DNA of 64,000 bases from Trypanosoma brucei (Eukaryota). Under the pieces are notes generated by a model, which did not search any database, was not told where the DNA came from, and was given only the letters and a program-made list of their open reading frames with translations. Below are positions 4,743 to 55,331 of the stretch, one piece after another. Location of the stretch: the NCBI GenBank assembly GCA_000002445.1, contig CM000207.1, forward strand, positions 928,001-992,000, read 5' to 3'. The stretch's first letter is position 1. Every line of letters starts with the position of its first letter. Made by a program: the position numbers and the translations under genes.

Positions 4743-4856
4743 GAATTAGTCGATATATACCTCTTCTTGTAATACGTTGCTGCTCAGAGGCACGCGCGCA
4801 CGACGCTGACCGCACCGCACCGCACCGCACAGGCGGTGAAGGAAGCTGGTTAAGTC

Positions 4857-8626: not shown

Positions 8627-8745
8627 AAAAAGCAACTCATAGCTAGCAAGTCAGTTTTTCACCAGCTAACTTCAAGTATTCGGCATATACCCATATCAAG
8701 GTAAAAAGGGAGAAAAAGAAAAAAGAAATAAAGATACAATTAAAC

Positions 8746-14612: not shown

Positions 14613-15692
14613 ATGCACCGTGCTAATATTATATTACGCACTGCGGTCACGGCCGCCAATGCCAATGCCGTATTGACAGGGGAAGGTCGGCCCTTCTCTA
14701 TGGTGACACGGGAGGTTAAGGCCATGCAGAATCACATTTCCAGCCTTGTCGCTAACAAGGAAAATGAAGTGCTGGATTACGCCGGTAAGTACGTGCTGTC
14801 GTCTGGGGGAAAGCTGCTGCGGCCCACATTAGTAGCAATGATGGCCCATGCACTCGTGCCGCCGCACATGAGTCAGCAGTTTCAGGCCAGTGATATTGGA
14901 TCACTAGACGATATTCCTTCCGGCACGATCCGCCCCTTTTTGCGGCTTGGGGAGGTTACAGAACTTATACACACCGCTGCGTTGGTACACGATGATGTGA
15001 TTGACGATAGTGAGATGCGCCGCGGGAAGCCTGCACTGCATTGCGTGCACGATGTCAAGCGTGCCGTGCTCGCGGGTGACTTCCTGCTAGCGCGGGCCTC
15101 ACTGTGGATTGCTTCCCTATGTGTCCCTCGCATAGTGGTGTTGATGACCACAGCTTTAGAGGACTTAACGCGTGGGGAGATGATGCAAATGGAGGGCTGC
15201 TTTGATCTTGAAAGGTACGAAGAGAAGACGTACTGTAAGACGGGTTCGCTTATTGCTAATTCCCTAGCAGCCACGGCGGTGCTTGCGGATCCCTCGAACT
15301 CTGCCCATGAAGTCGCTGCTGGGGAGTATGGCAGGCGGTTAGGCATTGCATTTCAAATCGTGGACGACTGCCTCGACATCACAGGAGATGAAAAAAACCT
15401 TGGAAAACGGACAATGGTGGATATGAAGGCAGGAATCGCCACCTTACCCACTCTTCTCGCCGCGAGGCAGGACAGTAAAGTGGATGCCGCAGTGCGCCGC
15501 CGCTTTAAGGAGCCCGGCGACGCGGAGATTTGTGTGGAGGCTATCGAGCGTCACGGTTGTGTTATGGAGGCGTTACAGCACGCAGATCAGCACTGCCGAC
15601 GTGGCATTGCGGCGCTACGCACTCTGCATGAGTCGCCTGCTCGTGAGCGGCTAGAAGCGGCGATGAATCTCCTCCTGACACGGGAATTGTGA
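14613..15692 (+). CDS. SPPS: Trans-polyprenyl diphosphate synthase, probably solanesyl-diphosphate synthase for the ubiquinone side chain
   Basis: First aspartate-rich motif LVHDDVIDDSEMRRGKP and second motif FQIVDDCLD. Chain-length-determining region. GDFLLARA. Confidence 0.8.
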   Translation: MHRANIILRTAVTAANANAVLTGEGRPFSMVTREVKAMQNHISSLVANKENEVLDYAGKYVLSSGGKLLRPTLVAMMAHALVPPHMSQQFQASDIGSLDDIPSGTIRPFLRLGEVTELIHTAALVHDDVIDDSEMRRGKPALHCVHDVKRAVLAGDFLLARASLWIASLCVPRIVVLMTTALEDLTRGEMMQMEGCFDLERYEEKTYCKTGSLIANSLAATAVLADPSNSAHEVAAGEYGRRLGIAFQIVDDCLDITGDEKNLGKRTMVDMKAGIATLPTLLAARQDSKVDAAVRRRFKEPGDAEICVEAIERHGCVMEALQHADQHCRRGIAALRTLHESPARERLEAAMNLLLTREL

Positions 15693-16347
15693 GCGCATCA
15701 TTTTTACTCTTTCTTCCCTCCCCCCCCCACACACTCGGCAACAGTTCCCCCTCTCTGTTAAGATCTGCTGCGATTTGGTTCAGCGACATTTTATTTGTAG
15801 GCCCGTGCCACCTTTTCCTTCCAAGTTTTGGTTCTATGGATAACATGAATACGTGTAATTCGTCCACACTTGTCCTACATTTTTGTTCCTTTTCAATTTT
15901 GTTTACCCTGTACTGTTAATCCGCATTGGCGCGCTTTGGAGAGTTACATGAGGGAAGAGAGGCGCTTGTGTCTTATTTCTTATTCCAATCTGTTGCAGGA
16001 TTGTGCGTGGATTTAGGCCTCCCCGTATCGTCCGTCGTTGGATCCTGGTTTAGTATCTGCTGTCACTATTTTGCACCCTTTTACCTTTTTTCTGGTGTCC
16101 CATTTGTTAAGTTGGCTGTAATCGGCTTTTAAACCTCAAGGCGCTTTGAAAGAATAGTTTACAACTTTGTTTCCTATTGAACCATTCGTTTAGTACTGTC
16201 AAAGGAAGCAAAGGTGTGAAGAAGAAGAAAGGACAAAAAACCGAAGAAGCGTATTATTTATTCATCTATTTATTTATTAGTTAGTGATACCACGCAGATT
16301 CAATATCGAAGCATTGATCAACCGTGATTGAACATTTAAAAAAATCA

Positions 16348-19326: not shown

Positions 19327-21689
19327 ATGTTTCACCAATTCGATGAAATTAGTGAGTTAACAAACCAATCATACGGGAGGAAACTGCAGCAGTATCTTTA
19401 TACACGCACATAGTTATGTGCATGTATATTTGTATATGCGTGTGTGTGGGAGACATTTGAGGGAAGAAGATACAAATTTGAAGATGGGAAGGAAACAAAA
19501 TTCAAGAAGAAAAACGAGTGAAAGGGCATTAGCTAAAGAAAAAGACGATAAACGCACACAAAAAAAAATACACCAGTAGATGGAGAAAACGTTTATTTAT
19601 TTTTTTTTACTTTTTTTTACTTGTTTGAAGTGTGAACGGGTGGCACGTAACCAGTGGGGCAGGGGGGGGGAAACAAATGGAAATGTTTAAAATTTAAAAA
19701 AAAACTGAAACCCGCTAAAGTTTAGGTGGTGAATTTGTGCTTGCGTTTGTAACCAACTGTAAATATGTATAGAAAATATCCATGCATATTTATTTTTTTA
19801 ATTAAATTATGGTTTATGCATGTAATAATGCAGTGAAACATGAAGAGATGAAATTGTATTGGTATATGGGCCCTGGTTTTCAGGTAACAGAATCTGTACG
19901 CGTGTTTAGTGGGTTACTTTTTCTTCTTTTCTCCCGTTTCCCTTTCTCTTTTAGTGATGGTGCTAACAATAATTATAAATATATTTATATTTCTTTACTT
20001 TATTCCGTCTTCCACCTGATCATTATGTTCAGGTGTAGGCATTAGGGAGGGGCGGGTGATGTGATGTGTGTGGTGTGTATGTGGGGAAGACAACACATAA
20101 ATTTCATTTGTGCATTTCCCCCTCCCCCCCCTCTCCTTCTTCCTCCTTTCTTTCCTTCGAAATCTGCAGAAACAAAAAATAATGGTTATGATGACGATAC
20201 GGAAGAAGACGGAAGGGTGGATGCACTGGTAGAAGTAAAAGTAGTGGGAAAGGGGGAGAACGTTAAGTTAAGGTAACGTGAGACAGGGTAAAGAAGAATA
20301 TATATATATATATAATTTGATAAACAAATGTTGAAAAAAAAACGCAACGACGCCATGCAATTTGAGCGTGTACCAGTTCTCCATTGGAGTGATAAACGGC
20401 ATCAGGTCTAGTTTACAGCTTTAACTTTTTTTTACTTTTTGTGTGCTATTTTCTTTCTCTTTTTCGTTCTCTTTTTACTATTATTATTATTTTGTTTTGA
20501 GGGTAGAACTTCTCCGACTTTATCGTTTCTTCCTTTGGTAGAAGGTTATCCACCATTTATTATTATTTTTTTGTTTTCCCTCTTTTTTCTTTATTTTCTC
20601 CTTATTTTTCATGTGGAGTACCGTTTCATTGAGTTTTTATGCAAAGAAAATGAAACTGGCTAAAGGGAAGAGAGAAAGCAACAAACAGTGAAGGAAAAGA
20701 AGAGGAGGGAATCGAATGAATGAATGAATGAATAAACAGGCATTGGCATATAACTTATAACCGCAATAGAAGTATTCCCAATTTTTATGCCACTTGCCTT
20801 CTGTTTTGACTATTAAAGTAATTTTGTTTTTATTTTACTCTTTTTATTTTGTTTTAATTCTTCATTCATTCTTATTCTGACTTTCCATCCCCTCTCCTGC
20901 TTTCGTTTTCATTTTATATCAGCTTTACACACTCAGCAGCCACTCAATAAAATTAGCGAAAAAATGTCGATTACTGTGATGACACCGAAAGAGTTGTAAT
21001 GATCATTTGTCTATGAAATATATATTTGGGGCCGCGCGTGTTTATGTATGCTGAGTGTGTGGATATTTTTTTCTTTTCCTCCCCCATCTAAAGCGTTGTG
21101 GGGGATAAATAATTAGTTTCAGGGATTGAAGGAACGGTGATTGTGTGTGAGAGGAATTGTTTTGGTGTTGTGACAAATTCCGCTGCTATTCAAATTCATT
21201 TATTGCGTTTCGGAGATTGACAGTTGAATCGGCGTTTTGGTGCCGGTGAAACTGCATGCGCAAATAGGAGGACTGTTCTTTTATACCTTTTGGTTTTATT
21301 ATTTTATTTTCCTCACCCATACCCTACGCTTCTTGTTATCGTTTCCCAATTCACTGCGATTGTTAAAGATTAATAAATTCTGCGCGCGGTTGAGTGGTTC
21401 TAGGCAACCTTCTTTTTTTTTTTCTTGTAGTCTCACGCATATAAACTGAACATCGTTTTTTTTTTTGCTCCCTCTTTTTTTTTTGAAAAAAAAAAAGAAG
21501 TTTCATCGGTAAAAGGTCAGAAAAGTGTCATCTTAGCTTGAGAAGTAGGAAAGCAAATAGTAAGGAAGATAAAAATATCAAACAAACAGTCGTAAGCATT
21601 GGTGTAGACAAATATATATACCATCAGAGGTTGTAGTAGAACCTTCTTTTTCATTAAAAACAAAAATCCAAAAAAAAAAGACAAAAATA

Positions 21690-31373: not shown

Positions 31374-32405
31374 ATGGTGAGGACGACACGCTTTTCACGC
31401 AACAGTTCCAAACCACTGTTTCAGCAATTACAGCTTATTACATCGTATGGACTCTTTCAGGAGTATCCACCCATTTGGTCACTTCCCCTTCCACCTCAAC
31501 AACCTCGTGATACGGGAAAACCCACACTGGTGCTTGATATTGATGAAACACTGATTCATACTGTGGGGATGCGGAATGAGGGGTCGGATTCTGTCTCCTT
31601 CAGTTTCTTCCTGCGTCCACATGCGAAGGAATTTCTCGCGGAGGTACGTGAACTGTACGAAGTTGTGTTCTGGACGGCTGGTACCGCATCCTACTGCTCA
31701 GCTGTTATGGATGCACTGGAGGTGCAGGTGTTACAACTCCCACGATCATTTTACAATATTGATGAACTCCGCGTAGAGGCACGTGGTGGAATCTCCACCA
31801 AGAATGTTAACTTCTATGCCCTTTCCCGAACTCAAACGTTACAAGGGCATAATTACATGAAATACCTTCCAATGCTTGGCAGACCATTGAATCGTGTCAT
31901 AGTGATCGACAGTGATGTACGCAGCTTTCCTCTTCATCCACGTAACGGTGTTAAGATCGAACCCTTCCTACCGAATGAACGTGTTTTATCCGAATATGCC
32001 CGCGTAGTAACCGATGAGGTGAAATATGGTCAAGTTGGTCAGCGGCAGTATGAAGGCGAAATGGCAAAAGTCATTGAGCGTGGTGAGGAGGAGGTAGCGC
32101 GATTGCAAGCGGATCATGCCCTTATGGATCTGATTCCAATGCTACGCTCTGCGGCTTCTTCAACTGATTTGACTCACGAATTAGACCATTGGCGTACGGA
32201 TGAGTACACAAAGTGTGACGACTTTCGTGAAACGATGAACTCTCTCTCAGTGACAAGGCAGAAGATTCTTGGTAATGTTCTTAAGGAGCGACGCAACGTA
32301 CCGATTCCGCCTCTCAAGCAGCACGTGATGAATCATGGATTTATGGAGGAGGCAAATGCCGCTATGAAGTTGGAGCAGATGCGACACACTCCTTCAAGAC
32401 TTTAG
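31374..32405 (+). CDS. NIF/FCP1-like (CTD small phosphatase-like, HAD family) protein phosphatase, copy 1
   Basis: DxDxT catalytic motif LVLDIDETLIHT. FCP/SCP-type core (FFLRPHAKEFLAEVRELYEVVFWTAG). 343 aa. Confidence 0.75.
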   Translation: MVRTTRFSRNSSKPLFQQLQLITSYGLFQEYPPIWSLPLPPQQPRDTGKPTLVLDIDETLIHTVGMRNEGSDSVSFSFFLRPHAKEFLAEVRELYEVVFWTAGTASYCSAVMDALEVQVLQLPRSFYNIDELRVEARGGISTKNVNFYALSRTQTLQGHNYMKYLPMLGRPLNRVIVIDSDVRSFPLHPRNGVKIEPFLPNERVLSEYARVVTDEVKYGQVGQRQYEGEMAKVIERGEEEVARLQADHALMDLIPMLRSAASSTDLTHELDHWRTDEYTKCDDFRETMNSLSVTRQKILGNVLKERRNVPIPPLKQHVMNHGFMEEANAAMKLEQMRHTPSRL

Positions 32406-34114: not shown

Positions 34115-35146
34115 ATGGTGAGGACGACACGCTTTTCACGCAACAGTTCCAAACCACTGTTTCAGCAATTACAGCTTATTACATCGTATGGACTCTTTCA
34201 GGAGTATCCACCCATTTGGTCACTTCCCCTTCCACCTCAACAACCTCGTGATACGGGAAAACCCACACTGGTGCTTGATATTGATGAAACACTGATTCAT
34301 ACTGTGGGGATGCGGAATGAGGGGTCGGATTCTGTCTCCTTCAGTTTCTTCCTGCGTCCACATGCGAAGGAATTTCTCGCGGAGGTACGTGAACTGTACG
34401 AAGTTGTGTTCTGGACGGCTGGTACCGCATCCTACTGCTCAGCTGTTATGGATGCACTGGAGGTGCAGGTGTTACAACTCCCACGATCATTTTACAATAT
34501 TGATGAACTCCGCGTAGAGGCACGTGGTGGAATCTCCACCAAGAATGTTAACTTCTATGCCCTTTCCCGAACTCAAACGTTACAAGGGCATAATTACATG
34601 AAATACCTTCCAATGCTTGGCAGACCATTGAATCGTGTCATAATGGTAGATGACAATGTGCGCAGCTTTCCTCTTCATCCACGTAACGGTGTTAAGATCG
34701 AACCCTTCCTACCGAATGAACGTGTTTTATCCGAATATGCCCGCATAGTAACCGATGAGGTGAAATATGGTCAAGTTGGTCAGCGGCAGTATGAAGGCGA
34801 AATGGCAAAAGTCATTGAGTGTGGTGAGGAGGAGGTAGCGCGATTGCAAGCGGATCATGCCCTTATGGATCTGATTCCAATGCTACGCTCTGCGGCTTCT
34901 TCAACTGATTTGACTCACGAATTAGACCATTGGCGTACGGATGAGTACACAAAGTGTGACGACTTTCGTGAAACGATGAACTCTCTCTCAGTGACAAGGC
35001 AGAAGATTCTTGGTAATGTTCTTAAGGAGCGACGCAACGTACCGATTCCGCCTCTCAAGCAGCACGTGATGAATCATGGATTTATGGAGGAGGCAAATGC
35101 CGCTATGAAGTTGGAGCAGATGCGACACACTCCTTCAAGACTTTAG
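34115..35146 (+). CDS. NIF/FCP1-like phosphatase, copy 2. It differs from copy 1 at 7 residues, 5 of them clustered in RVIVIDSDV to RVIMVDDNV.
   Basis: Same motifs as copy 1. Tandem unit 2. Confidence 0.75.
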   Translation: MVRTTRFSRNSSKPLFQQLQLITSYGLFQEYPPIWSLPLPPQQPRDTGKPTLVLDIDETLIHTVGMRNEGSDSVSFSFFLRPHAKEFLAEVRELYEVVFWTAGTASYCSAVMDALEVQVLQLPRSFYNIDELRVEARGGISTKNVNFYALSRTQTLQGHNYMKYLPMLGRPLNRVIMVDDNVRSFPLHPRNGVKIEPFLPNERVLSEYARIVTDEVKYGQVGQRQYEGEMAKVIECGEEEVARLQADHALMDLIPMLRSAASSTDLTHELDHWRTDEYTKCDDFRETMNSLSVTRQKILGNVLKERRNVPIPPLKQHVMNHGFMEEANAAMKLEQMRHTPSRL

Positions 35147-43624: not shown

Positions 43625-44224
43625 TGGGCGTTCTTTCGTGAGATACAACGCGGAAGAATCAGCGAACCGTGTGTTGTATTATTCTTTTTTTTTTTTACCA
43701 TCCGCCATGCACACGCGCAGTTGGGCGTGCGCATTCGGGGGGTTTCATGGCTTGTAGTTGCAGATATTGAATGTGTGTTGTTTACTTGGTTATATTTGTT
43801 GGTGGGAACGGCCTTTCTCTCCGACTTTTTTTTTGTGTTGCCGCACCGACAATTTGGAGGTGTCGCCACTGCTGGTGTTCTCGCCCTCTTCTTTTCCCCT
43901 TTTTGAGAAAATAAGGAGATGAAAGGGAGGATTAGCCTCCAAGGTGGTGTGTTCCCACTCATATATATGGAGGCAACTGGATTTCTTCATTTGGTCTCCT
44001 GCTACTGTGGGAGTGTTGATATATGATACACTAAACAATGTGAGTGCAACTGTTGATTGTAACGTTTAACTGGACGCGTTTCTTATCACTGAGCATTTAA
44101 CACTAGTTTTGATCGTTAACTTCTTTTCCGTTCTCCCCTATTTGTATTTACGGTTTGCAATGTAGGCGCCTGTACGGGAGCGGGGAAGGGGGTTTAGGAA
44201 AGCGCACACAATCCGGTGTTGTGC

Positions 44225-47200
44225 ATGACCTCCCTTTTACCAGCGGCGGAGTCGCATGATGTGAGGAGCGTAGAAACTACTGATGTATCTTCCTCCTACA
44301 CAAACCCTGCAGGGGCACCACATGTATCTCCGTCCTCCTCCTCAACGGCGGAGAAGAAGAGCGTAGGAACCATGCTTTTTAGCAAGACACTCTTCAGTTT
44401 ACCCCCAGTCAGTTCAGTTCATCGTTGTCAGGAGGACGGATCCAACCGTACTCTTATGGCATTTCCAGTTGATGATAAACACCTACTCGTGGTTGTTGGT
44501 CCCAGTTCGGCTGCCAGTGACACCACCACGTCGCTGTACGTTGTGCGGCAGACTGTAGGAGGCTCCCAAACGTGTGGTCGAGTTTGCTTGCCCATTGCTA
44601 CCGTTTCGGGATGTGTACGGGACGAAAGCGGGCACAGCATTTCGCAACACGAGAAGAGGGGAAGTTTTTTGATGTCCGAACAATCTACCGATAACGTGGA
44701 CGGGGGTCGGTCACCTGACCGTTCCTCCCGGCTCATATCGCCCCTGGATGAGTCTGTTGATACCGGTTCAGTTGACAATGATAACAGCACCCCCCAAAAT
44801 AGGGTAGTTGGAGGAACGAATGCTTCTGATCAGGAGTTCACCAACAGACATAACCCGTCTCATGTATATTTAGTTGCCGATGCCGCGGGCCATGCCATTT
44901 GGGCGGTTGAAGTTAATACGGAGTCATTAGGGGCTCGTATTGTACCGGCTTGTTGCTACTGGGGGCAGTGTATGCATGACGGCAAAGTGGACGGTGTGAA
45001 AGCGTCGACACGAGGCCAGCACCAAAAAGGTTGTGTGGCGAGTGCGGTGCCACTTCTTGGGGGTTCTAAGGGGTTTGCTGATGGGCCGTTCCAGGTAGCG
45101 CGCTTCAACTCCCCTTCTTCACTCTGTTGGGGCGCCGATATGGAAGGTGGAAAAGGAAGAAAACCCCGAGAATGTGCCGTGCTGTTTGTGAGTGACGAGG
45201 GGAACCATGCCATAAGGCAAGTGGATCTTGAGAAGGCGCTGGTCCGCACCATTGCTGGTATTGGTGGTGTGTCTGGTTACCGTGACGGCGGGTACACTGC
45301 GTCGCAACTGCAACGTGCAGCAGTATTACTTTGGAGTTCTGCCGGGCTGCTGTTTGTTGACAAGCCAAACCGTGCTGTTCGACTGATCGCACAAACTGCT
45401 AGGGCGGAAGATGGTGACAGCGGGAACATCATGAAAAAGCCTCCACCACTCACCAGTGTCACAGCACCTGCTCATCCACATGTAGAGACTGAAGGAGACA
45501 AGAAGGAGAGGAGTAAGCAAGGGGAAGAAGTCTGCGAAGATGAAGTGCAAGTTTCTACAGTTGCTGGTGGGATTTCAAGTGGTGTGGCGACTCCGTTTGA
45601 TGACGATGACATCCGCTGCTCGTCCCTGGGAACTTCAACAGCTGCAGCAGTCATGCCAGACGGCAGTGGAATACTCTTCGCCGATGGAGGCAGTGGTGCA
45701 CTTCAGCTGCTCTCTTCACAGGGTATAAAAATGATAGTTTCTCCGCATGGGCACGGAAACTCCAGTGGCATTCCTCCTGGCTTGGTTGGTTGCACGCATC
45801 TTGTGGCTTGCAAATTAATTTTGCATTCGAGCGCCTCACCACACATTGCATTTCTCGCTAGCAGTGGGTCCAATCAAACAGTCTCAATGCTCGTCTTGCG
45901 TGGCGGAGCAGATGACGGTGGGATGACGAGTTTTAATTATGACGGCCACACTAATATGCTGCTGCAGTTCGCAGCAACCTCCGAGTTGCAAAGGGGTGTT
46001 CTGCGCAGATACAAGAAAGTTGAAAATAGGGCAGGCAGTGATTACCAGAGCACAAAAGTTTCCGCAACTGGGACGACGACTGCTAGTAATGATTGCCATG
46101 TCAAAAGGCTATTCGACGAAGCACTTGGTGATCTGGATGGAAATGTGACCCCGGCCACACAAACGGTACGAACATCACGCACTTCATGCGCTAAAGCGTT
46201 ACCTTGGAAAACTTCTTCGGGCGATCAGCAGTTGACCGACCGTACAGGAAGGGCTGCTGGACGAGTTCTAGATATTTATATGCGTTATGCTCGGCGCCTC
46301 ACACGACAACACATGGGGTTTGTAACATGCTCACCCAGATGCAAACACTACCTCCGTAATCTGTGGGGAGCCCGTTCACTTTCCTTGATTGGTTTTTGGC
46401 GGATGGTTACGCATGCTGGCTATTTTGCCACGTGTTCTGCACCCACAGCTCCCTTAATGTTTCCGTCGTGGGATGGGAGGTCACCAACAAGAGATGCGAG
46501 AAGACAAAAGGGCAACAGTGTTCTTCACTTGAATCTATGTGACTGGCGCATTGCCCTCGAGCTTTTGTATGAGTGGAGTATCCGCAGACATGGACATCAC
46601 GTCGTCTCCCTAATGGAACCAGCCTATTTTTCTCGAGTGCTTGTACTGCTATATCGATGGAGGGGAAGCATGCAGCAGCAGCCGACAACGCAACAAGGTG
46701 AAGAGGGTGTGTTGTTAAGCCCCGAGTGGTTCGCCGATGGTTTATTTGATGAAAATGATAGCGAGGTGGTGGTCGCTGCGCACGAAGATTTCCTCAGTCG
46801 CATAAAGAATGCGAAGGAGTTGCTGCGCGGGGCAGCGAAGGCTCGTGGGGGCGATGGGAGGCAACAGGAGGGTGATGAAGTGAAGATTCTAGGGGATGAG
46901 ACGCTGCAACTCCTCCTGCTCAATGAAGGTCCACTAAGACAACTGTTTAATGCCTACGGTAAAACGACATTCATCACCACGAGGTCAACGGTATCGCATG
47001 ACTCGACGAAGAAACCGATTCTTGCGATGCTCCGGCTAAGACAGTCATTGAATATTGGTCAAGAATATGACAAAGTTCCGTTGGACCATGTGGTTGGGAT
47101 GCCTTACAAAGAATTCAGGAGGCTTTTCTTTACAATGGGTGTTTTCCCCACCCTTATTACAGAGTCATTACTTCGGCGCGCTTTTGTAGACTCCCTAATG

Positions 47201-47662
47201 ACACCTTTGTTCCGTAGCATCCAGATGGAGATCCCGTCAGAAACAACGAGTAACAAGTGTAAAAAGACCAAAGGAGGTTCAGGGTCAAACGAAATTAAAC
47301 CGAAGGGAGGAATACATCAGTACGTCGATCGGTCACCTTGTAATGTGCAACGATACGTCTCCGACAACGTCGAGCTTTCTTTTCTTATTTTTGTTGAGGC
47401 ATTCACTCGAGTCGCTCTAACGATATTTTCACTCTGTCCCGAACACGACAGGAGGGCATACCCAACCGCTGCTGCGAAGGTGGAGGCTCTCATGCGCTGG
47501 ATCAACCGCTCTGTTGAACTTCACCACACGCGGGAGTGCGATACGTTATTCCATATCGGTTCTCAAAAGGGTGTGGCGCCGCCGGTATCGTATACGTTGC
47601 GGCAACTCAATCGGCCGTTTCCTGCTTTTATATTGAACGGTATAACCTCTACAACCAAATGA
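44225..47662 (+). CDS. Large hypothetical protein (~1145 aa) with probable NHL-type beta-propeller repeats in the N-terminal third
   Basis: Repeated motifs of the NHL kind (GFADGPFQVARFNSPSSLCW..., LFVSDEGNHAIRQVDL, ADAAGHAIWAVEV, LLFVDKPNRAVRLIA). The rest is unassigned. The track ORF starts at GTG 44216. The first ATG is 44225. Confidence 0.4.
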   Translation: MTSLLPAAESHDVRSVETTDVSSSYTNPAGAPHVSPSSSSTAEKKSVGTMLFSKTLFSLPPVSSVHRCQEDGSNRTLMAFPVDDKHLLVVVGPSSAASDTTTSLYVVRQTVGGSQTCGRVCLPIATVSGCVRDESGHSISQHEKRGSFLMSEQSTDNVDGGRSPDRSSRLISPLDESVDTGSVDNDNSTPQNRVVGGTNASDQEFTNRHNPSHVYLVADAAGHAIWAVEVNTESLGARIVPACCYWGQCMHDGKVDGVKASTRGQHQKGCVASAVPLLGGSKGFADGPFQVARFNSPSSLCWGADMEGGKGRKPRECAVLFVSDEGNHAIRQVDLEKALVRTIAGIGGVSGYRDGGYTASQLQRAAVLLWSSAGLLFVDKPNRAVRLIAQTARAEDGDSGNIMKKPPPLTSVTAPAHPHVETEGDKKERSKQGEEVCEDEVQVSTVAGGISSGVATPFDDDDIRCSSLGTSTAAAVMPDGSGILFADGGSGALQLLSSQGIKMIVSPHGHGNSSGIPPGLVGCTHLVACKLILHSSASPHIAFLASSGSNQTVSMLVLRGGADDGGMTSFNYDGHTNMLLQFAATSELQRGVLRRYKKVENRAGSDYQSTKVSATGTTTASNDCHVKRLFDEALGDLDGNVTPATQTVRTSRTSCAKALPWKTSSGDQQLTDRTGRAAGRVLDIYMRYARRLTRQHMGFVTCSPRCKHYLRNLWGARSLSLIGFWRMVTHAGYFATCSAPTAPLMFPSWDGRSPTRDARRQKGNSVLHLNLCDWRIALELLYEWSIRRHGHHVVSLMEPAYFSRVLVLLYRWRGSMQQQPTTQQGEEGVLLSPEWFADGLFDENDSEVVVAAHEDFLSRIKNAKELLRGAAKARGGDGRQQEGDEVKILGDETLQLLLLNEGPLRQLFNAYGKTTFITTRSTVSHDSTKKPILAMLRLRQSLNIGQEYDKVPLDHVVGMPYKEFRRLFFTMGVFPTLITESLLRRAFVDSLMTPLFRSIQMEIPSETTSNKCKKTKGGSGSNEIKPKGGIHQYVDRSPCNVQRYVSDNVELSFLIFVEAFTRVALTIFSLCPEHDRRAYPTAAAKVEALMRWINRSVELHHTRECDTLFHIGSQKGVAPPVSYTLRQLNRPFPAFILNGITSTTK

Positions 47663-48115: not shown

Positions 48116-49330
48116 ATGGGCTTCGGATCATCAAAACCCAAGAACAAGCCGTCCAAAGCTGATTCAAAGAATTCTCCATCAGATCCAACGGGGGCAGGAA
48201 ATAATGATTTGGAAAAGGCCTTTGCGAAACTGCAGGCTGCAAAGGACTGCCACTCGCTGTTGAAGAAACATCTGACAAGTGATGTCTTCAAGAAGCTAAA
48301 GGACAAGAAGACGAAGTTGGGTGCTACCTTACTTGATGTCATTCAATCTGGTGTACAGAACCTCGATTCCGGTGTTGGTTTATATGCACCAGACGCAGAA
48401 GCCTACACTGTGTTTGCCGACCTCTTCGATCCCGTCATTGAGGATTACCACAACGGCTTTAAGGTAACGGACAAACAACCACCAAAGGACTTCGGTGACT
48501 TAAATACGCTGGTTGACGTTGATCCGGAAGGTAAATATGTTATTTCCACCCGTGTGCGCTGTGGCCGCAGTCTCGCCGGTTACCCATTCAACCCATGCCT
48601 AACGAAGGAGCAGTACGAGGAAATGGAGTCACGTGTGCGGGAACAACTGAGCACAATGACAGATGATCTGCAAGGTACTTATTATCCGCTTTCTGGCATG
48701 ACGAAAGAAACACAACAGCAGCTAATTGATGACCACTTCCTCTTCAAGGAGGGCGATCGTTTCCTGCAAGCTGCCCGCGCATGCGAGTATTGGCCAACTG
48801 GTCGTGGTATCTACCATAACAATGACAAGACATTCCTCGTGTGGGTGAATGAAGAGGACCACCTGCGCATCATTTCCATGCAGAAGGGCGGGAACTTGAA
48901 GGAGGTCTTCGGCCGTCTTGTGAAGGCAGTGAACACCATTGAAGAGAAGGTGGAGTTTTCTCGTGATGACCGACTTGGTTTCCTGACGTTCTGCCCCTCG
49001 AACCTCGGCACGACGATCCGCGCAAGTGTGCACATCAAATTACCGAAACTTGGTGCTGATCGCGCTAAACTTGAGGAGGTTGCTGCAAAATATAACCTGC
49101 AGGTACGTGGAACAGCTGGTGAGCACTCTGACAGCCCTGACGGAATTTATGATATCAGCAACAAGCGCCGCCTCGGCCTATCGGAGTATGAAGCCGTAAA
49201 GGAAATGCAAGACGGTATCCTTGAGCTCATCAAACTGGAGCAATCCGATGATGCAGAGGGGAACGGAGGTGCTGACGCTGCTGGGCCAGATGATGGCGTA
49301 GACGGTGTAGCCACGAATGAAAATGAATAA
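48116..49330 (+). CDS. AK1: Arginine kinase, paralogue with N- and C-terminal extensions (404 aa). The N-terminus MGFGSSK fits an N-myristoylation-type start. This is the flagellar isoform in T. brucei.
   Basis: Phosphagen (ATP:guanidino) kinase signature CPSNLGT. Nucleotide-binding arginines. Differs from AK2 and AK3 by about 30 extra N-terminal and about 22 extra C-terminal residues. Confidence 0.9.
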
Positions 49331-50505
49331 TCTGGTGAGGGTGATGCATTGTTCTATTCAGGCAAGTAGGACATTACTTTTACTTCGGTATTGATTTTCC
49401 TTCTTTTGTTTTTTCGGTGTTTTTGATTGGACAAGGTAAATTATTAGATAGGGTAGCATGTGATGATTCCTACTCCTTATATTTTCTAAAAAAGAAAGAA
49501 GTTTCTTTCCCCTTTGATTTTTATTTTTGCCCTCCCCTTTCTTTTTCCCATTTTTTTCTTATGTTTATATTTAATATAAAAACTGCATCAATGTATTATG
49601 TATATACCTTTATATCAATGTATTTATTAACTTTTTAATGATGCAAGAGATCATGACATAATGGGAAAATGGTGTGGGGGAGAACGGGTCGGGATGGAAG
49701 GGGGAGGTACTTGTGTATAGAGAGAGATTTTGTAGGGTTGTTCACTGATAAAGCAACGTTTTCAGACGAGCGCCATCCCAATAGTACTCTTTTTTGGATA
49801 TTCTCCTTACTCTTTCCTTTTAATCTTTTTTTATTTTTATTTTTTTCCTCTGGCCTGTTATTGTAGCTGGTGCTCCGTCCTTCTGTCGTCTACCATCCTT
49901 ATTTTTTGTCCCCTAATTCTTCCTTGGTCCTGCAAATTTAACGGATTTCCCCACCACCTAGTTGAAGAGTACCCAAAGCACGTCTCGCAATGATCCAGGG
50001 AATAAAAGATGACAGGTGAAAGAGAAGCCGTGAGAATCTCTATCTGAAGTCCAGAGGGATAAACATGTGTGCAGATGCGCGTTATTCTCAAGAGAGTATG
50101 GAACTACTCATCCACTCGTCATACATTCTTGTGCTCCGGCGCAAACCAAAAAAAAAAATTATTGCTGCCACTCTTTGATTTGTGGCGTGGGCAAAGTCAT
50201 TGAAGCCACACAAACCGCTGGATGTTAAAACAGTATTGACATTGGAAACAGAAACGCATAACTACAGGACGGACAACAAAGAAGTTAAAAAAATGAAAAA
50301 GTAAAGAAAGGACCGGTTCCCGCTTTTGATTATTCCTAACGCTGAGGATCACAACGCACCATCTTTAACAGCACGTCCCCTAACTTTAACTTCATTTTCT
50401 TCTTTTCTCTTTTATGTGCGTCCCTTTAATCAAAGCTGAACAGCTGTTCTTGTTGCACTATCACAAAAACAGCGAGTATCTACCAAACAAGAAAAAAAAT
50501 TAAAG

Positions 50506-51618
50506 ATGGCTACCCGCGACGTTGCTGCCGAGTTGGAAAAGGCCTTTGCGAAACTGCAGGCTGCAAAGGACTGCCACTCGCTGTTGAAGAAACATCTGAC
50601 AAGTGATGTCTTCAAGAAGCTAAAGGACAAGAAGACGAAGTTGGGTGCTACCTTACTTGATGTCATTCAATCTGGTGTACAGAACCTCGATTCCGGTGTT
50701 GGTTTATATGCACCAGACGCAGAAGCCTACACTGTGTTTGCCGACCTCTTCGATCCCGTCATTGAGGATTACCACAACGGCTTTAAGGTAACGGACAAAC
50801 AACCACCAAAGGACTTCGGTGACTTAAATACGCTGGTTGACGTTGATCCGGAAGGTAAATATGTTATTTCCACCCGTGTGCGCTGTGGCCGCAGTCTCGC
50901 CGGTTACCCATTCAACCCATGCCTAACGAAGGAGCAGTACGAGGAAATGGAGTCACGTGTGCGGGAACAACTGAGCACAATGACAGATGATCTGCAAGGT
51001 ACTTATTATCCGCTTTCTGGCATGACGAAAGAAACACAACAGCAGCTAATTGATGACCACTTCCTCTTCAAGGAGGGCGATCGTTTCCTGCAAGCTGCCC
51101 GCGCATGCGAGTATTGGCCAACTGGTCGTGGTATCTACCATAACAATGACAAGACATTCCTCGTGTGGGTGAATGAAGAGGACCACCTGCGCATCATTTC
51201 CATGCAGAAGGGCGGGAACTTGAAGGAGGTCTTCAGCCGTCTTGTGAAGGCAGTGAACATCATTGAAGAGAAGGTGGAGTTTTCTCGTGATGATCGACTT
51301 GGTTTCCTGACGTTCTGCCCCTCGAACCTCGGCACGACGATCCGCGCAAGTGTGCACATCAAATTACCGAAACTTGGTGCTGATCGCGCTAAACTTGAGG
51401 AGGTTGCTGCAAAATATAACCTGCAGGTACGTGGAACAGCTGGTGAGCACTCTGACAGCCCTGACGGAATTTATGATATCAGCAACAAGCGCCGCCTCGG
51501 CCTATCGGAGTATGAAGCCGTAAAGGAAATGCAAGACGGTATCCTTGAGCTCATCAAACTGGAGAATCGGGCTGTCGTAACCGATGGCGCCAAACCATTT
51601 GTTGGTTCGAACTTGTAG
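50506..51618 (+). CDS. AK2: Arginine kinase paralogue (370 aa) with a C-terminal extension ending -SNL. This is a PTS1-like tripeptide and marks the glycosomal isoform.
   Basis: Core identical or near-identical to AK1 and AK3. The unique C-terminus is ...[17 protein letters not shown]. Confidence 0.9.
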
Positions 51619-52314
51619 GGTTCTTTCCTTTCTTTCATACATTTCCCCTCTTAATTTTCTTCTTTGTTGACCTTTTTGCTTTATTTGCTGCTGATATCAT
51701 TGTTATGGTCTTTTTTAAAATTTTGGAAACGTAATTAGGTGATGATTGCCTTTGCTTCCGGTGGCTCCACTACTTGCTGAGTGACTTGATTGTTGTTACT
51801 TGTATTTTTTAAAAAAATGTGTTGGAAGATGCGTATGCGTGTATGTGCATGTGTTCTTCACTGTAGCACCATGCTGGTCTACTCCGCATAATTCTACGTT
51901 GGGGGAAGAAGTTGAGGCACGTGAAAGAATTTGTGAAGTTATTGGTGTGTACAAGTAAAAGGATTCAGAACAGGGGCCTGTATGGGGGGGGGGGGGTGAA
52001 CGCGTGTCCACGCCACTGTTGCCGAAGTGTCTGCCCTGCTCTTCTACCAAATTTCCTGAATCGTATTTGTGTCGAACTGCTGTACGCAACTGTTCCGATT
52101 ACGCTTTTCGAATCCTCTCTTGTTAGTGTGTCTGATGTAGAACTATTCCATTGTTTTGTTGCTAACATATTATTATTATTATTATTATTTTTGCGATTTG
52201 TCATATATACGAAATTTTTTTCTTTTCATGCTTCTCCTCTGGTACGGGTAAGGGCACTAGGCAAGTGCAAGACCATTGCAAGTGGCATTTCAGGTTTGCG
52301 ACTCGCAGTGGGCT

Positions 52315-53841
52315 ATGTTTTGTTGCACCTTCACTCAAGCCTGCCGTGCCCAACCTGGTGGCGTACCCCGACTAGATGTGAGTACTGTCAAAAGAATGTT
52401 CCCTCCAGCGCAGGTAGCGCAATGGCCGCCGGGATATCTTCCGGCGTGTGGCGTCGCACACTTCCTGAGCCCCGATGGCGTCCCACTTGCTGATGTGATT
52501 GATTGCCACCGCGACATGAGGGCAGACCGCCGTTGCCAGCTTCAGCGGGATTTTGCTGCAGATTATACGATGTGGTGCCGGGCAACATTAATGGACTTTG
52601 TACGTCGCCTTAACGAGAGGGACCGACGTCGCATGAAGCGTTTTTGTATGCGCGACCGAACGATGCATGATGCTGAAGTCCGCGAGTTGCTCGGTCTTGC
52701 CCCATACGTAGCCCCACGAGCACAACCGTCGCAGGAAACTGTCGGTACTAGCGCGGCACCCAAATGGGGGAGTTGTTACGAATTCACCCCTTTTGCTGTG
52801 ACACAAGGTCACGCCATGCTTCCCGTGTCGCAGTGCAACGGGTCGGACGCACGTATGTACTTATCAACATTCCCACAGATAAGAAACATCATGCATACAG
52901 AGTTCGACAGCATGGGGCCCGCACGTGCCATAGCACTTCTCTCCGGTGATGATTTCTTTCCGACAGCTGAGTGTCTTCAGGAACTGGTGTTGTACCTCCG
53001 GAGCCGGGTGGGCGAAATTATCGCTGCGGAAAAGGCATTTCGCGGTTCCTCTCTGTTCACTGAGCGCGGTAGGGATGCCAATGACGGAGACCAGCATGAG
53101 GCCGATGCCGGTCAACCGTTCTCTCTTGATACACCTGTTGTTTCTTTTTTTGGTAACGGGCGTCTGGCGTGGTTATTAAACAACAGCGGCCTCCTCCCTT
53201 TCCCTGTGGTGCCTGTGCAACCGCCCGAGTACGCCGCGAGAAGACAGCGCCGCAACAAACATTTGCTCTCCCGTGATGGGTTTGTTTCAGAATTATTTGG
53301 GCATGGAGTACTTCCTGAAAGCTTCACTACCGTGTTTCCTTGCGAGACAATCACCGTCCCTGATGCCCTTCGCAAGTACCGCCCGTGTGTTGTGCTTGTG
53401 GAGCCGCATGTCGATAGGGACTGGTTGTGCGATCTCCGCGGGTTTTATACAACGAGGGAGGTGGTGTTGCTCGGGTCCGTAGACTCGCCAGCGATGTGCT
53501 CGTTTGGTTTTCCTTTTTTGTCTTTCGGCGTTATGGCCGGGCCCACTACCTATTGGGCATACAATGAGGCATTACAACGAGTGTCAGCAGCCGAGAGAAT
53601 TCAAATGCCTGTGGATCCACCACACGTGTCACAGGGCTATGCACGCCGTCCAATCGACAATATATCGTCCTACCTGATTTCTCCAAACGACTGCTATGCG
53701 TTTAGCTACCAGCATCGATGTCTTTCCTTCATTCGCAAGGAATACCCTATTTCCAGAGGGCGGTGCACAGAAGCAATATGCAACACGTCACCAGAGCTTT
53801 GTCCCTCGAATATGGTTGCCGGTGAGAAGCACCAAATATGA
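52315..53841 (+). CDS. Hypothetical protein (~508 aa from the first ATG; the track ORF is 521 aa from a non-ATG codon) embedded between AK2 and AK3. No recognisable domain.
   Basis: Long ORF on the coding strand, flanked by polypyrimidine tracts. Cys- and Arg-rich. The start codon is uncertain. Confidence 0.4.
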   Translation: MFCCTFTQACRAQPGGVPRLDVSTVKRMFPPAQVAQWPPGYLPACGVAHFLSPDGVPLADVIDCHRDMRADRRCQLQRDFAADYTMWCRATLMDFVRRLNERDRRRMKRFCMRDRTMHDAEVRELLGLAPYVAPRAQPSQETVGTSAAPKWGSCYEFTPFAVTQGHAMLPVSQCNGSDARMYLSTFPQIRNIMHTEFDSMGPARAIALLSGDDFFPTAECLQELVLYLRSRVGEIIAAEKAFRGSSLFTERGRDANDGDQHEADAGQPFSLDTPVVSFFGNGRLAWLLNNSGLLPFPVVPVQPPEYAARRQRRNKHLLSRDGFVSELFGHGVLPESFTTVFPCETITVPDALRKYRPCVVLVEPHVDRDWLCDLRGFYTTREVVLLGSVDSPAMCSFGFPFLSFGVMAGPTTYWAYNEALQRVSAAERIQMPVDPPHVSQGYARRPIDNISSYLISPNDCYAFSYQHRCLSFIRKEYPISRGRCTEAICNTSPELCPSNMVAGEKHQI

Positions 53842-54260
53842 GTTTCACGGGGCATCAAAACTATAAAACACCAAAAAGTATCGACTTTTCATTAGCCCCT
53901 CTCCCAGTAATCCGTGCATTTTTTTTTTTGATACACCTGTCAATTAATGCGTGTTTCCGGTACCACATCGGGTGACAGTCATCGAATAAAACTGGCGATG
54001 CAAGTGACGGGATATTCTTCATTCACCGGCCGTACCCAAAGCGACTAAAGAAAAGAAGTTATAGCGGCAATGTGGCAAAAAAAAACAACTAAAGTCTAGA
54101 AAGCACAAAAAAATTTAACCACTGCATGTTGAAAAGTGTGGATTAACTTAACGTTTGTTCAGCGCGTATGTTCCCTCCTTTTCCTACTGCAACGCCACCG
54201 TTTTTATTAGTTTCTACGAAAAGCTAACAAATATCTACCAAACAAGAAAAAAAATTAAAG

Positions 54261-55331
54261 ATGGCTACCCGCGACGTTGCTGCCGAGTTGGAAAAGGCCT
54301 TTGCGAAACTGCAGGCTGCAAAGGACTGCCACTCGCTGTTGAAGAAATATCTGACAAGTGATGTCTTCAAGAAGCTAAAGGACAAGAAGACGAAGTTGGG
54401 TGCTACCTTACTTGATGTCATTCAATCTGGTGTACAGAACCTCGATTCCGGTGTTGGTTTATATGCACCAGACGCAGAAGCCTACACTGTGTTTGCCGAC
54501 CTCTTCGATCCCGTCATTGAGGATTACCACAACGGCTTTAAGGTAACGGACAAACAACCACCAAAGGACTTCGGTGACTTAAATACGCTGGTTGACGTTG
54601 ATCCGGAAGGTAAATATGTTATTTCCACCCGTGTGCGCTGTGGCCGCAGTCTCGCCGGTTACCCATTCAACCCATGCCTAACGAAGGAGCAGTACGAGGA
54701 AATGGAGTCACGTGTGCGGGAACAACTGAGCACAATGACAGATGATCTGCAAGGTACTTATTATCCGCTTTCTGGCATGACGAAAGAAACACAACAGCAG
54801 CTAATTGATGACCACTTCCTCTTCAAGGAGGGCGATCGTTTCCTGCAAGCTGCCCGCGCATGCGAGTATTGGCCAACTGGTCGTGGTATCTACCATAACA
54901 ATGACAAGACATTCCTCGTGTGGGTGAATGAAGAGGACCACCTGCGTATCATTTCCATGCAGAAGGGCGGGAACTTGAAGGAGGTCTTCGGCCGTCTTGT
55001 GAAGGCAGTGAACACCATTGAAAAAAAGGTGGAGTTCTCTCGTGATGATCGACTTGGTTTCCTGACGTTCTGCCCCTCGAACCTCGGCACGACGATCCGC
55101 GCAAGTGTGCACATCAAATTACCGAAACTTGGTGCTGATCGCGCTAAACTTGAGGAGGTTGCTGCAAAATATAACCTGCAGGTACGTGGAACAGCTGGTG
55201 AGCACTCTGACAGCCCTGACGGAATTTATGATATCAGCAACAAGCGCCGCCTCGGCCTATCGGAGTATGAAGCCGTAAAGGAAATGCAAGACGGTATCCT
55301 TGAGCTCATCAAACTGGAGAAGTCGAAGTAG
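54261..55331 (+). CDS. AK3: Arginine kinase paralogue without extensions (356 aa), the cytosolic-type isoform
   Basis: Same core as AK1 and AK2. Ends ...IKLEKSK directly after the conserved domain. Shares a 5' flank with AK2 (atctaccaaacaagaaaaaaaattaaag ATG). Confidence 0.9.

What the first reader, a model, noticed from the sequence alone, without database searches (positions are those of the whole stretch)
52276..53841. Unique ~510-aa ORF interrupting the arginine kinase tandem array
A long, Cys/Arg-rich ORF with no recognisable domain sits between AK2 and AK3. The repeat array has therefore been split by, or has grown around, an unrelated gene. The track ORF begins at a non-ATG codon. The first ATG is about 13 codons in. 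It has no hydrophobic signal or transmembrane region and no paralogue in the window. A gene kept inside a homogenising tandem array is a natural candidate for co-regulation with energy metabolism. It is one of the least-characterised pieces of the window.
Basis: seen in the sequence. Interest (0 to 1): 0.5.

Follow-up and report, generated by a model that had tools for sequence, protein, structure and literature searches.

The report
Conserved dead-methyltransferase-like gene between arginine kinases
The ORF is a real, single-copy trypanosome gene (Tb927.9.6270) that was at this spot before the arginine kinase copies spread around it, and it encodes a probably mitochondrial protein with a methyltransferase fold whose cofactor-binding residues are gone; this is of moderate interest.

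Summary
The ORF at 52276-53841 is real. Its coding sequence most likely starts at the first ATG (52315), giving 508 aa, where orthologue N-termini align. It is Tb927.9.6270, a "conserved hypothetical" gene of Trypanosoma brucei, with orthologues across kinetoplastids.

It is not an intruder. Leishmania donovani and Leptomonas pyrrhocoris have the same upstream gene, this gene and the ABC transporter, with no arginine kinase (AK) between them. Trypanosoma species have amplified AK around it in different ways. In T. vivax a 3.7-kb [ORF-AK] unit is repeated three times.

Profile searches link it (HHalign 99.8%) to an uncurated protist and bacterial family with canonical SAM motifs. All 41 kinetoplastid-type sequences lack the motif I acid, two of its three glycines and the β2 acid. 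They carry EPH in place of SWMP. It is therefore probably a pseudo-methyltransferase.

Published proteomics lists it in procyclic mitochondrial proteomes and in no bloodstream-form proteome. Deleting it together with the AKs is harmless in bloodstream forms.

A functional link to AK is not supported. The biochemical role remains inferred.

The parts
52315..53841 (+). Coding sequence of Tb927.9.6270 (508 aa plus stop), single copy
   Evidence: ORF list. The gene ID comes from PMC6522824. There are 35 kinetoplastid homologues. Orthologue N-termini align at this ATG.
52276..52314 (+). In-frame non-ATG extension of the listed ORF; most likely 5' UTR, not coding
   Evidence: It starts at a TTG after an in-frame TAG at 52258. 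Orthologues in other Trypanosoma species show no conserved sequence N-terminal of the aligned Met.
52215..52252 (+). Polypyrimidine tract (52215-52241) and first downstream AG (52251-52252): putative spliced-leader acceptor (inferred)
   Evidence: No ATG lies between this AG and 52315.
52315..52371 (+). Residues 1-19: short basic N-terminus that resembles a mitochondrial presequence (2 Arg, no acidic residue before D21; pLDDT below 50 for residues 1-14)
   Evidence: Deeper-branching relatives have longer Arg-rich N-termini (MRRSLWALSARSK..., MYRAQCLRRMVSK..., MKNISRRWFSRTAVRG...).
52372..53064 (+). Residues 20-250: all-helical N-terminal domain containing the invariant RDFAADYxxW motif; no structural relative found
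53122..53754 (+). Residues 270-480: seven-beta-strand (class I) methyltransferase-like Rossmann domain
53146..53181 (+). Residues 278-289, FFGNGRLAWLLN: degenerate motif I (canonical relatives have LEVGAGxGRLSxFL)
   Evidence: Alignments. In 41 kinetoplastid-type sequences the acid is retained in 0/41, the first Gly is Phe in 40/41, the second Gly is deleted in 40/41, and the third Gly is kept in 41/41.
53206..53223 (+). Residues 298-303, VVPVQP: end of beta-2, where canonical relatives have (A/V)(T/S)D. The ribose-binding acid is absent and the position varies (Q/R/A/C)
53398..53424 (+). Residues 362-370, VEPHVDRDW: a nearly invariant EPH replaces the family's SWMP at the end of beta-4 (motif IV position)
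   Evidence: E-P-H in 40/41 kinetoplastid-type sequences, against S-W-M-P in 40-50 of 57 other members, depending on the position. P364, H365 and D369 are invariant.
48116..49330 (+). Context: AK copy 1 (404 aa, MGFGSSK N-terminal extension; flagellar isoform, Tb927.9.6210). Repeated core is 48206-49245
   Evidence: PMC3679164 and the bioRxiv preprint 10.1101/2020.05.07.083568.
50506..51618 (+). Context: AK copy 2 (370 aa, C-terminal SNL; glycosomal isoform, Tb927.9.6250). Repeated core is 50477-51568
54261..55331 (+). Context: AK copy 3 (356 aa; cytosolic isoform, Tb927.9.6290). Repeated core is 54232-55321, 99.36% identical to copy 2 across the intervening gene

Best explanation
The ORF is Tb927.9.6270, a nuclear gene conserved across Kinetoplastida, transcribed within the + strand polycistron and translated from the ATG at 52315. 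It was at this locus before the AK copies. AK lies beside it only in Trypanosoma, where AK has been amplified around it, or together with it, in different ways in different species. The protein has three parts: a short basic N-terminus that resembles a mitochondrial presequence, a lineage-specific helical domain, and a C-terminal class I methyltransferase fold. It descends from an uncurated family of protist proteins, usually with presequence-like N-termini, and some bacterial proteins that keep canonical SAM-binding motifs (LEVGAGxGRL, a beta-2 Asp, SWMP). The kinetoplastid-type clade lost the cofactor-binding residues. It then fixed a new EPH motif while keeping the C-terminal surface invariant (DxxxxxRG, PPHxxQGY, SFxR). 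I infer that it no longer methylates anything. It more likely works as a non-catalytic binding or assembly module (a pseudo-methyltransferase) in the procyclic-stage mitochondrion and is dispensable in cultured bloodstream forms. Shown here: gene reality, start codon, synteny history, fold, family link and motif loss. Taken from the literature: detection in mitochondrial proteomes and dispensability in bloodstream forms. Inferred: loss of catalysis, and a scaffolding or binding role.
Against: No experiment addresses SAM binding. Two glycines and the conserved GRL of motif I remain, and some active methyltransferases have atypical pockets. The model coordinates could not be inspected for a residual cavity. 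The protein was not counted in the ATOM40-dependent importome. In the same study it fell most on PEX14 (glycosome import) RNAi: ratio 0.31, log2 -1.69, p 0.074, seen in only 2 of 3 replicates. I cannot explain that result. It leaves glycosomal or dual localisation open, even though no orthologue has a PTS2, and PTS1 is absent apart from one loose-pattern match in a single unnamed orthologue (P0009). I found no entry in the held supplements of TrypTag or the hyperLOPIT map, so no imaging evidence was seen. It is absent from every solved structure, including kinetoplastid mitochondrial complexes, so no partner is known. The T. brucei presequence is short and weak (2 Arg).
Confidence: 0.5

Rival explanations
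1. It is still an active SAM-dependent methyltransferase with a remodelled cofactor pocket. The invariant EPH, GNGRL and Asp/Arg residues would form a non-canonical active site that methylates a mitochondrial protein or RNA in procyclic cells.
For: The fold is intact and confidently modelled. G280, G282, R283 and L284 of motif I are invariant. E363 is nearly invariant, and P364, H365, D369 and R375 are invariant, which suggests a constrained site rather than decay. Close relatives in diplonemids keep a canonical site.
Against: The motif I acid and the beta-2 acid are retained in 0 of 41 sequences. The beta-2 position is not even conserved (Q/R/A/C). The glycine loop is one residue shorter. These are the residues that define SAM binding in class I enzymes (general knowledge). 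No Pfam methyltransferase model reports a hit even at E up to 10.
Confidence: 0.2
2. One reading: the gene is kept next to the AKs because it works with the phosphoarginine system. For example, it could be a glycosomal or dual-localised partner or regulator that is co-amplified and co-regulated with AK.
For: Adjacency to AK holds in all five Trypanosoma species examined. The gene is co-amplified with AK in T. vivax ([ORF-AK] three times) and T. cruzi. It dropped strongly on PEX14 RNAi in glycosome-containing fractions (ratio 0.31, 2 replicates, p 0.074). Its upstream neighbour is the glycosomal AK isoform.
Against: The gene sits at the same locus in Leishmania and Leptomonas, where no AK is present. 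It is conserved in deep-branching kinetoplastid-type sequences. Tandem duplication captures neighbours regardless of function. Polycistronic transcription makes adjacency uninformative (plus general knowledge). No orthologue has a PTS2, and only one unnamed orthologue (P0009) matches a loose PTS1 pattern. The PEX14 result did not meet the authors' criteria. Mitochondrial proteome lists include the protein.
Confidence: 0.08
3. It is a chance or decaying ORF: not a functional gene, or a pseudogene in T. brucei.
For: It has no annotated function. The T. b. gambiense DAL972 protein model lacks residues of about 203-281. The T. brucei sequence has acquired many non-conserved cysteines.
Against: It is a 508-codon intact frame with orthologues throughout Kinetoplastida and 44 invariant columns. 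A 99%-identical full-length copy exists in another T. brucei-group assembly (P0001). Peptides were detected by MS in several data sets, 3-4 peptides each.
Confidence: 0.01

Closest known systems
[not shown]
   Same: The C-terminal half has the same alpha/beta fold and strand order. Canonical relatives of the family carry a typical motif I and beta-2 Asp that match solved methyltransferases at sequence level.
Uncurated 'LEVGAGxGRL ... SWMPxGxDWT ... WxTWG ... PPYxxDGF' methyltransferase-like family. Examples: Hondaea fermentalgiana FCC1311_096712, Diplonema ambulator EP01059_P005122, Euglena gracilis EG_transcript_17813, Durusdinium trenchii SCF082_LOCUS19803, and metagenomic bacterial members
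   Same: Homologous over about 208 aligned columns covering the helix before beta-1 and the whole Rossmann domain (HHalign 99.8%). Shared residues are GRL, KYxP, D(W/Y), R, G, PPxxxxG(F/Y) and SFxR. Most eukaryotic members have basic N-termini.
   Different: Those members keep the canonical SAM motifs and lack the kinetoplastid N-terminal domain (residues 20-160). None has been characterised or named, and none has a Pfam or NCBIfam family. The link therefore says nothing about substrate.
Catalytically inactive methyltransferase-fold proteins used as structural or assembly factors in kinetoplastid mitochondria, such as methyltransferase-like mitoribosome assembly factors seen in T. brucei assembly-intermediate structures (recalled from my own knowledge, not tested here)
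   Same: The proposed mode of action matches: a conserved methyltransferase fold with a degenerate cofactor site acting as a binding module in the mitochondrion.
   Different: Tb927.9.6270 matches no chain of any solved structure, either as a single sequence or as a profile. It is therefore not one of those factors, and no complex is known for it.
NDUFAF7/MidA family (Pfam Methyltransf_28), mitochondrial complex I assembly methyltransferase
   Same: It is a mitochondrial class I methyltransferase-fold protein. Two bacterial relatives give sub-threshold hits to the first 46 positions of this model (P0070 E 0.0011; P0094 E 0.018).
   Different: The hits cover only the motif I region and fall below the gathering score. 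The window protein itself does not hit the model. I do not consider it a member.

Membership tests
Class I SAM-dependent methyltransferase superfamily | Seven-stranded alpha/beta Rossmann-like fold | tested here: met
   [not shown]
Class I SAM-dependent methyltransferase superfamily | Motif I: acidic residue followed by GxGxG after beta-1 | tested here: not met
   The sequence is VVSFFGNGRL. Across 41 kinetoplastid-type sequences the acid is kept in 0/41, Gly1 is Phe in 40/41 and Gly2 is deleted in 40/41. Only Gly3 and one extra Gly remain.
Class I SAM-dependent methyltransferase superfamily | Acidic residue at the end of beta-2 that binds the SAM ribose | tested here: not met
   The T. brucei sequence is VVPVQP. 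The position is Q/R/A/C among orthologues, and Asp is kept in 0/41, against 47/57 in the rest of the family.
Class I SAM-dependent methyltransferase superfamily | SAM binding and methyl transfer | not testable with these tools
   This needs recombinant protein (ITC or DSF with SAM/SAH, plus activity assays), or at least ligand co-folding.
KsgA/Dim1/Erm rRNA adenine dimethyltransferases | Match to the RrnaAD family model, the (N/D)(L/I)P(Y/F) motif IV, and the C-terminal helical RNA-binding domain | tested here: not met
   No Pfam hit even at E up to 10. NCBIfam Erm models hit only a distant relative, at E 0.0017 and 17.8 bits against a 212-bit cut-off. Motif IV is EPH. The extra domain is N-terminal and unrelated.
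Uncurated SWMP/TWG methyltransferase-like family (protists and some bacteria) | Profile-level homology across the Rossmann domain | tested here: met
   HHalign 99.8%, E 1.4e-27, 208 columns. The HMM profile search recovers these proteins at E 1e-13 to 1e-3.
Uncurated SWMP/TWG methyltransferase-like family (protists and some bacteria) | Family signature motifs LEVGAGxGRL, (A/V)(T/S)D, SWMP and WxTWG | tested here: not met
   In the window protein they are replaced by FFGNGRL, VQP, EPH and FPFLSFG. It is a divergent, separately constrained subclade.
Mitochondrial matrix-targeted proteins | N-terminal basic, acid-poor presequence | tested here: inconclusive
   Only a simple charge count was made. 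T. brucei residues 1-19 have 2 Arg and no acidic residue. Relatives have much clearer presequence-like N-termini. No dedicated predictor was available.
Mitochondrial matrix-targeted proteins | Experimental detection in purified mitochondria and dependence on the import pore | tested here: inconclusive
   From the literature. It is in the PCF mitoproteome compilation. It falls mildly on ATOM40 RNAi but is not in the defined importome, and it falls more strongly on PEX14 RNAi.
Glycosomal matrix proteins | PTS1 tripeptide at the C-terminus or PTS2 nonapeptide near the N-terminus | tested here: not met
   Regex scan of the window protein and its relatives. No sequence has a PTS2. The T. brucei C-terminus is ...GEKHQI. 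Among kinetoplastid-type orthologues only P0009 (C-terminus GATAHV) matches the loose PTS1 pattern, and C-termini are not conserved.
Phosphagen (arginine) kinases | ATP-gua_PtransN and ATP-gua_Ptrans domains | tested here: not met
   No Pfam hit. There is no similarity to the flanking AK copies.

The most novel reading that the evidence does not exclude
Tb927.9.6270 and its kinetoplastid orthologues are the catalytically dead descendants of a so far undescribed, mostly mitochondrial methyltransferase family of protists, which also occurs in some bacteria. After losing SAM binding in the kinetoplastid ancestor, they gained a lineage-specific helical domain and a new invariant EPH site. They now serve as a stage-regulated, non-enzymatic factor in procyclic mitochondrial biogenesis.
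Probability: 0.35. Interest if true: 0.45.

Novelty: new variant of a known kind. Interest (0 to 1): 0.3.

Why it matters
It turns a "conserved hypothetical" gene in a well-studied T. brucei locus into something testable. The candidate is a procyclic-stage, probably mitochondrial pseudo-methyltransferase, with clear positive controls in the canonical homologues from diplonemids and stramenopiles.

It also changes how the AK cluster should be read. The AKs spread around, and in T. vivax and T. cruzi together with, an older resident gene. Adjacency is therefore not evidence of shared function.

There is a practical consequence too. The published bloodstream-form "delta-AK" line also lacks this gene (PMC6522824). 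Any phenotype of that line in differentiation or in the insect stage could be due to Tb927.9.6270 rather than to the AKs.

The wider family has canonical SAM motifs, no Pfam or NCBIfam model, and members in several protist supergroups and in bacteria. It is a small gap in current family databases.

Tried and rejected
Sequence-level annotation gave nothing.
- Pfam: only UPF0300 at E 0.097.
- NCBIfam: no hit.
- PDB by phmmer and by profile: no meaningful hit.

Other computational attempts:
- Foldseek against AFDB50 could not be run because the library was not installed.
- Pfam scans of 26 distant relatives gave only sub-threshold generic methyltransferase hits.
- Cluster look-ups gave almost no names.
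- Gene neighbourhoods were uninformative, both for a bacterial member (next to Fic, HU and SpoU) and for a protist-like contig.

Literature:
- The gene ID appears in the main text of only one held paper.
- There was no entry in the held supplements of TrypTag, the hyperLOPIT map, the diplonemid mitoproteome, the kDNA screen or the kDNA-loss proteomes. Some of those files were truncated when stored.
- Pyrih 2023 and Niemann 2013 are not held, and the id I tried for the Alsford 2011 RIT-seq paper returned nothing.

Ideas considered and rejected:
- A relic second copy of the ORF between AK1 and AK2 (none found).
- Shared intergenic repeats that would define a classical tandem unit (only 29 nt upstream of AK2 and AK3 are shared).
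- A PTS1 or PTS2 signal: no PTS2 anywhere, and only a loose PTS1-pattern match in one unnamed orthologue, P0009.
- The overlapping 193-aa TTG ORF at 51912-52493 as a gene. It lies in the AK2 3' region, spans the polypyrimidine tract, and nothing supports it.
- dN/dS was not attempted, because the available DNA orthologues are too divergent (no more than 65% protein identity).
Full report
**1. Observation**

The window is the Trypanosoma brucei chromosome 9 arginine kinase (AK) locus. Three AK genes lie at 48116-49330, 50506-51618 and 54261-55331.
- The first (404 aa) has an MGFGSSK N-terminal extension.
- The second (370 aa) ends in SNL.
- The third is 356 aa.

These match the flagellar, glycosomal and cytosolic isoforms described in PMC3679164 and in the bioRxiv preprint 10.1101/2020.05.07.083568.

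Between copies 2 and 3 there is an uninterrupted + strand ORF, 52276-53841. The listed TTG start only reflects the ORF-listing rule.
- An in-frame TAG lies at 52258.
- The first ATG is at 52315, codon 14 of the listed ORF.
- A polypyrimidine tract (52215-52241) is followed by its first AG at 52251.
- No ATG lies between that AG and 52315.
- Orthologue N-termini align at this Met.

The coding sequence is therefore most likely 52315-53841, giving 508 aa.

- No TM segment: the maximum 19-residue hydropathy is 1.31.
- Composition: Arg 9.3%, Lys 1.6%, Cys 3.9%.
- No second copy or relic in the window.
- No Pfam family.

The Cys excess is specific to T. brucei. Only C64, C343 and C460 are widely conserved.

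**2. Identity**

Johnston et al. [quoted passage not shown] That is this ORF.

A search of 5.8 billion proteins found 35 homologues (E 0 to 1e-65). Every one that a source names is from a kinetoplastid: Trypanosoma, Leishmania, Leptomonas, Porcisia, Novymonas, Strigomonas and Angomonas. The unnamed, more distant sequences come from sequencing-run assemblies and EukProt.

An alignment of 26 orthologues, 36-64% identical to the window protein, has 44 invariant columns. Peptides from the protein were quantified in several procyclic proteomic data sets. It is a real, expressed and selectively maintained gene.

**3. History of the locus**

I fetched orthologous loci and confirmed the flanking genes by tblastn.
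- L. donovani and Leptomonas pyrrhocoris: [large upstream gene, orthologue of window 44216-47662] - [this gene] - [ABC transporter] - ... - [inositol phosphatase-like]. There is no AK.
- T. cruzi: [316 aa] - [this gene] - [AK] - [ABC], and the four-gene block is duplicated.
- T. theileri: at least one AK upstream (interrupted by runs of N), then this gene, AK, ABC.
- T. vivax: a 3.7-kb [this gene - AK] unit is present three times at 95-98% identity. Copies 2 and 3 of the gene are identical.
- T. brucei: AK-AK-[this gene]-AK-ABC.

So the gene is the older resident and the AKs have spread around it.

Whether AK was inserted in the Trypanosoma lineage or lost in Leishmaniinae is not settled by my data.

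In T. brucei the repeats are confined to the AK coding cores (99.3-99.5% identity). UTRs and intergenic DNA are unique, apart from 29 nt upstream of copies 2 and 3. Sequence homogenisation therefore acts on the AK coding sequences across the intervening gene, not on a classical repeat unit.

**4. What the protein is**

AlphaFold2 with the orthologue alignment gave a confident model: mean pLDDT 79.4, pTM 0.80.
- Residues 1-14 are disordered.
- Residues about 20-250 are helical.
- Residues about 270-480 form an alpha/beta domain with seven strands.

An exhaustive HMM search of 1.84 billion representative proteins found 71 proteins. Beyond the kinetoplastid clade these include:
- Diplonema ambulator;
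- a Euglena gracilis transcript, Hondaea fermentalgiana and Durusdinium trenchii;
- MMETSP transcripts;
- members on bacterial contigs.

These proteins have a textbook motif I (LEVGAGxGRL), an Asp at the end of beta-2 and a family signature: SWMPxGxDWT...EYxLIGExDxGxCGxxWxTWG...PPYxxDGF...SFRR.

None belongs to a Pfam or NCBIfam family. They give only sub-threshold hits to generic methyltransferase models.

The kinetoplastid and canonical profiles are homologous: HHalign 99.8%, E 1.4e-27. The canonical profile hits motif I and beta-2 of a solved SAM methyltransferase.

**5. Loss of the cofactor site**

I aligned 98 family members and compared 41 kinetoplastid-type sequences with 57 others.

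| Position | Kinetoplastid-type (41) | Others (57) |
|---|---|---|
| Motif I acid | never Asp or Glu | 44 Glu, 4 Asp |
| First Gly | Phe in 40 | Gly in 50 |
| Second Gly | deleted in 40 | Gly in 45 |
| Third Gly | kept in 41 | Gly in 55 |
| Beta-2 Asp | absent in all 41 | Asp in 47 |
| SWMP at end of beta-4 | E-P-H in 40 | canonical in 40-50 |

The beta-2 position is itself variable among kinetoplastid orthologues (Q/R/A/C).

The residues that define SAM binding in class I enzymes (established knowledge) are therefore gone throughout the clade. Meanwhile new residues (EPH, D369, R375-G376) and the C-terminal surface (PxDxPxxxQGY, SFxR) are invariant. This is the pattern of a pseudoenzyme under purifying selection. 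It is not the pattern of decay.

Loss of catalysis is an inference. Nothing here measures binding.

**6. Where and when it acts**

The evidence in this section comes from the literature.

In the mitoproteome compilation of Zikova et al. (PMC5739487, Table S1) Tb927.9.6270 is listed in the category "unknown".
- Detected in the compiled procyclic mitochondrial MS data.
- Detected in Niemann 2013.
- Not in the Peikert importome.
- Not found in any of six bloodstream-form proteomes ("Present in BF: no").

In Peikert et al. (PMC5436138) it was quantified with 3-4 peptides.

| Experiment | Ratio | log2 | p |
|---|---|---|---|
| ATOM40 RNAi, whole cells | 0.76 | -0.39 | 0.028 |
| ATOM40 RNAi, organelle-enriched fraction | 0.65 | -0.62 | 0.078 |
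| ERV1 RNAi | 0.89 | -0.16 | 0.58 (not significant) |
| PEX14 RNAi, glycosome-containing pellet (2 of 3 replicates) | 0.31 | -1.69 | 0.074 |

The PEX14 value is unexplained and keeps a glycosomal or dual location open. However, no orthologue has a PTS2. The only PTS1-type match is a loose-pattern hit in one unnamed orthologue (P0009). N-termini across the family are basic and acid-poor, and often look like classical presequences, for example MRRSLWALSARSK and MKNISRRWFSRTAVRG.

Johnston et al. replaced the whole four-gene region in bloodstream forms. The line was viable, its growth rate was similar to wild type, and there was no significant global metabolic change. The gene is therefore dispensable in cultured bloodstream forms, which fits procyclic-biased expression.

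**7. Best explanation and rivals**

Best explanation (confidence about 0.5): a conserved, probably mitochondrial, procyclic-stage pseudo-methyltransferase that acts as a non-catalytic binding or assembly module. It is unrelated in function to the AKs that surround it.

Rivals:
- Still an active methyltransferase with a remodelled pocket (0.2).
- A functional partner of AK or of the glycosome (0.08). Co-amplification in T. vivax and T. cruzi and the PEX14 result speak for it. Its presence without AK in Leishmaniinae, the near-absence of PTS signals and polycistronic transcription speak against it.
- Not a functional gene (0.01).

**8. Comparison with the known, and novelty**

The protein works like other methyltransferase-fold proteins that have lost catalysis. 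It is not a member of any curated methyltransferase family. Within the uncurated SWMP/TWG family it forms a divergent subclade that fails the family's own signature motifs.

It is absent from all solved structures, including kinetoplastid mitochondrial complexes.

The gene itself is already annotated, and the literature calls it of unknown function. What is new here is the fold and family assignment, the clade-wide loss of the cofactor site, and the synteny history.

I rate it as a new variant of a known kind, with interest 0.3. It is useful and testable, but a specialist would not find it very surprising.

Noticed in passing
window 48206-49245, 50477-51568, 54232-55321: The three AK copies are 99.3-99.5% identical over the coding core only. 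The N- and C-terminal extensions, UTRs and intergenic DNA are unique, apart from 29 nt upstream of copies 2 and 3. Homogenisation between copies 2 and 3 therefore operates across the 2.6 kb that holds the unrelated gene.
   Followed up: partly
L008 (T. vivax SOPI01000018.1) 9343-19867: A 3.7-kb [Tb927.9.6270 orthologue - AK] unit is repeated three times at 95-98% identity. ORF copies 2 and 3 are identical (488 aa). The first ORF and the first AK appear frameshifted or split in this assembly.
   Followed up: partly
L001 (T. cruzi MBSY01000090.1) 1-16000: The four-gene block [316-aa gene - orthologue - AK - ABC transporter] is tandemly duplicated. The second ABC copy gives two overlapping tblastn pieces, which suggests a frameshift.
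   Followed up: no
P0002 (T. b. gambiense DAL972 protein) versus window 52921-53157: The annotated T. b. gambiense protein (434 aa) lacks residues of about 203-281, replaced by 'HSIWY'. The missing stretch includes the long helix before beta-1 and beta-1 itself. It could be an assembly or annotation artefact or a real deletion. Another T. brucei-group assembly has the full 508 aa.
   Followed up: partly
PMC5436138 Supplementary Data 10 (external data on this gene): The protein dropped to 0.31 of control on PEX14 (glycosome import) RNAi in 2 of 3 replicates. That is a stronger fall than on ATOM40 RNAi, although it has no PTS1 or PTS2. Unexplained.
   Followed up: partly
window 31374-32405 and 34115-35146: This is a second tandem gene pair in the window. 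Two 343-aa ORFs are 98% identical and carry a DIDETL (DxDxT phosphatase-like) motif. Their differences cluster at residues 176-182 (VIVIDSD versus VIMVDDN).
   Followed up: partly
window 48722-49033, 51046-51357, 54801-55112 (- strand): A 103-aa GTG-start antisense ORF recurs inside each AK copy. It is most likely a by-product of the repeated AK coding sequence rather than a gene.
   Followed up: no
window 51912-52493 (+): A 193-aa TTG-start ORF in another frame overlaps the AK2 3' region, the polypyrimidine tract and the first 60 codons of Tb927.9.6270. Nothing supports it as coding. A run of 13 G sits at about 51985-51997 within it.
   Followed up: no
P0091, P0094 (L006 6394-8148), P0117: Some likely bacterial or metagenomic members of the canonical family are fused to extra regions. 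P0094 has an N-terminal region and P0091 a C-terminal region, each with an HExxH motif. P0117 has TPR repeats. In L006 the gene sits next to a Fic-domain gene.
   Followed up: no
P0053-P0063; L005: A third clade of 410-470-aa relatives also has a degenerate motif I (e.g. VNAMNGRLA) and His-Glu at the end of beta-2. One member lies on a 100-kb metagenomic contig where its neighbours are tightly spaced and all those of about 150 aa or more are on one strand, an arrangement that resembles a euglenozoan polycistron. The organism is unknown.
   Followed up: no
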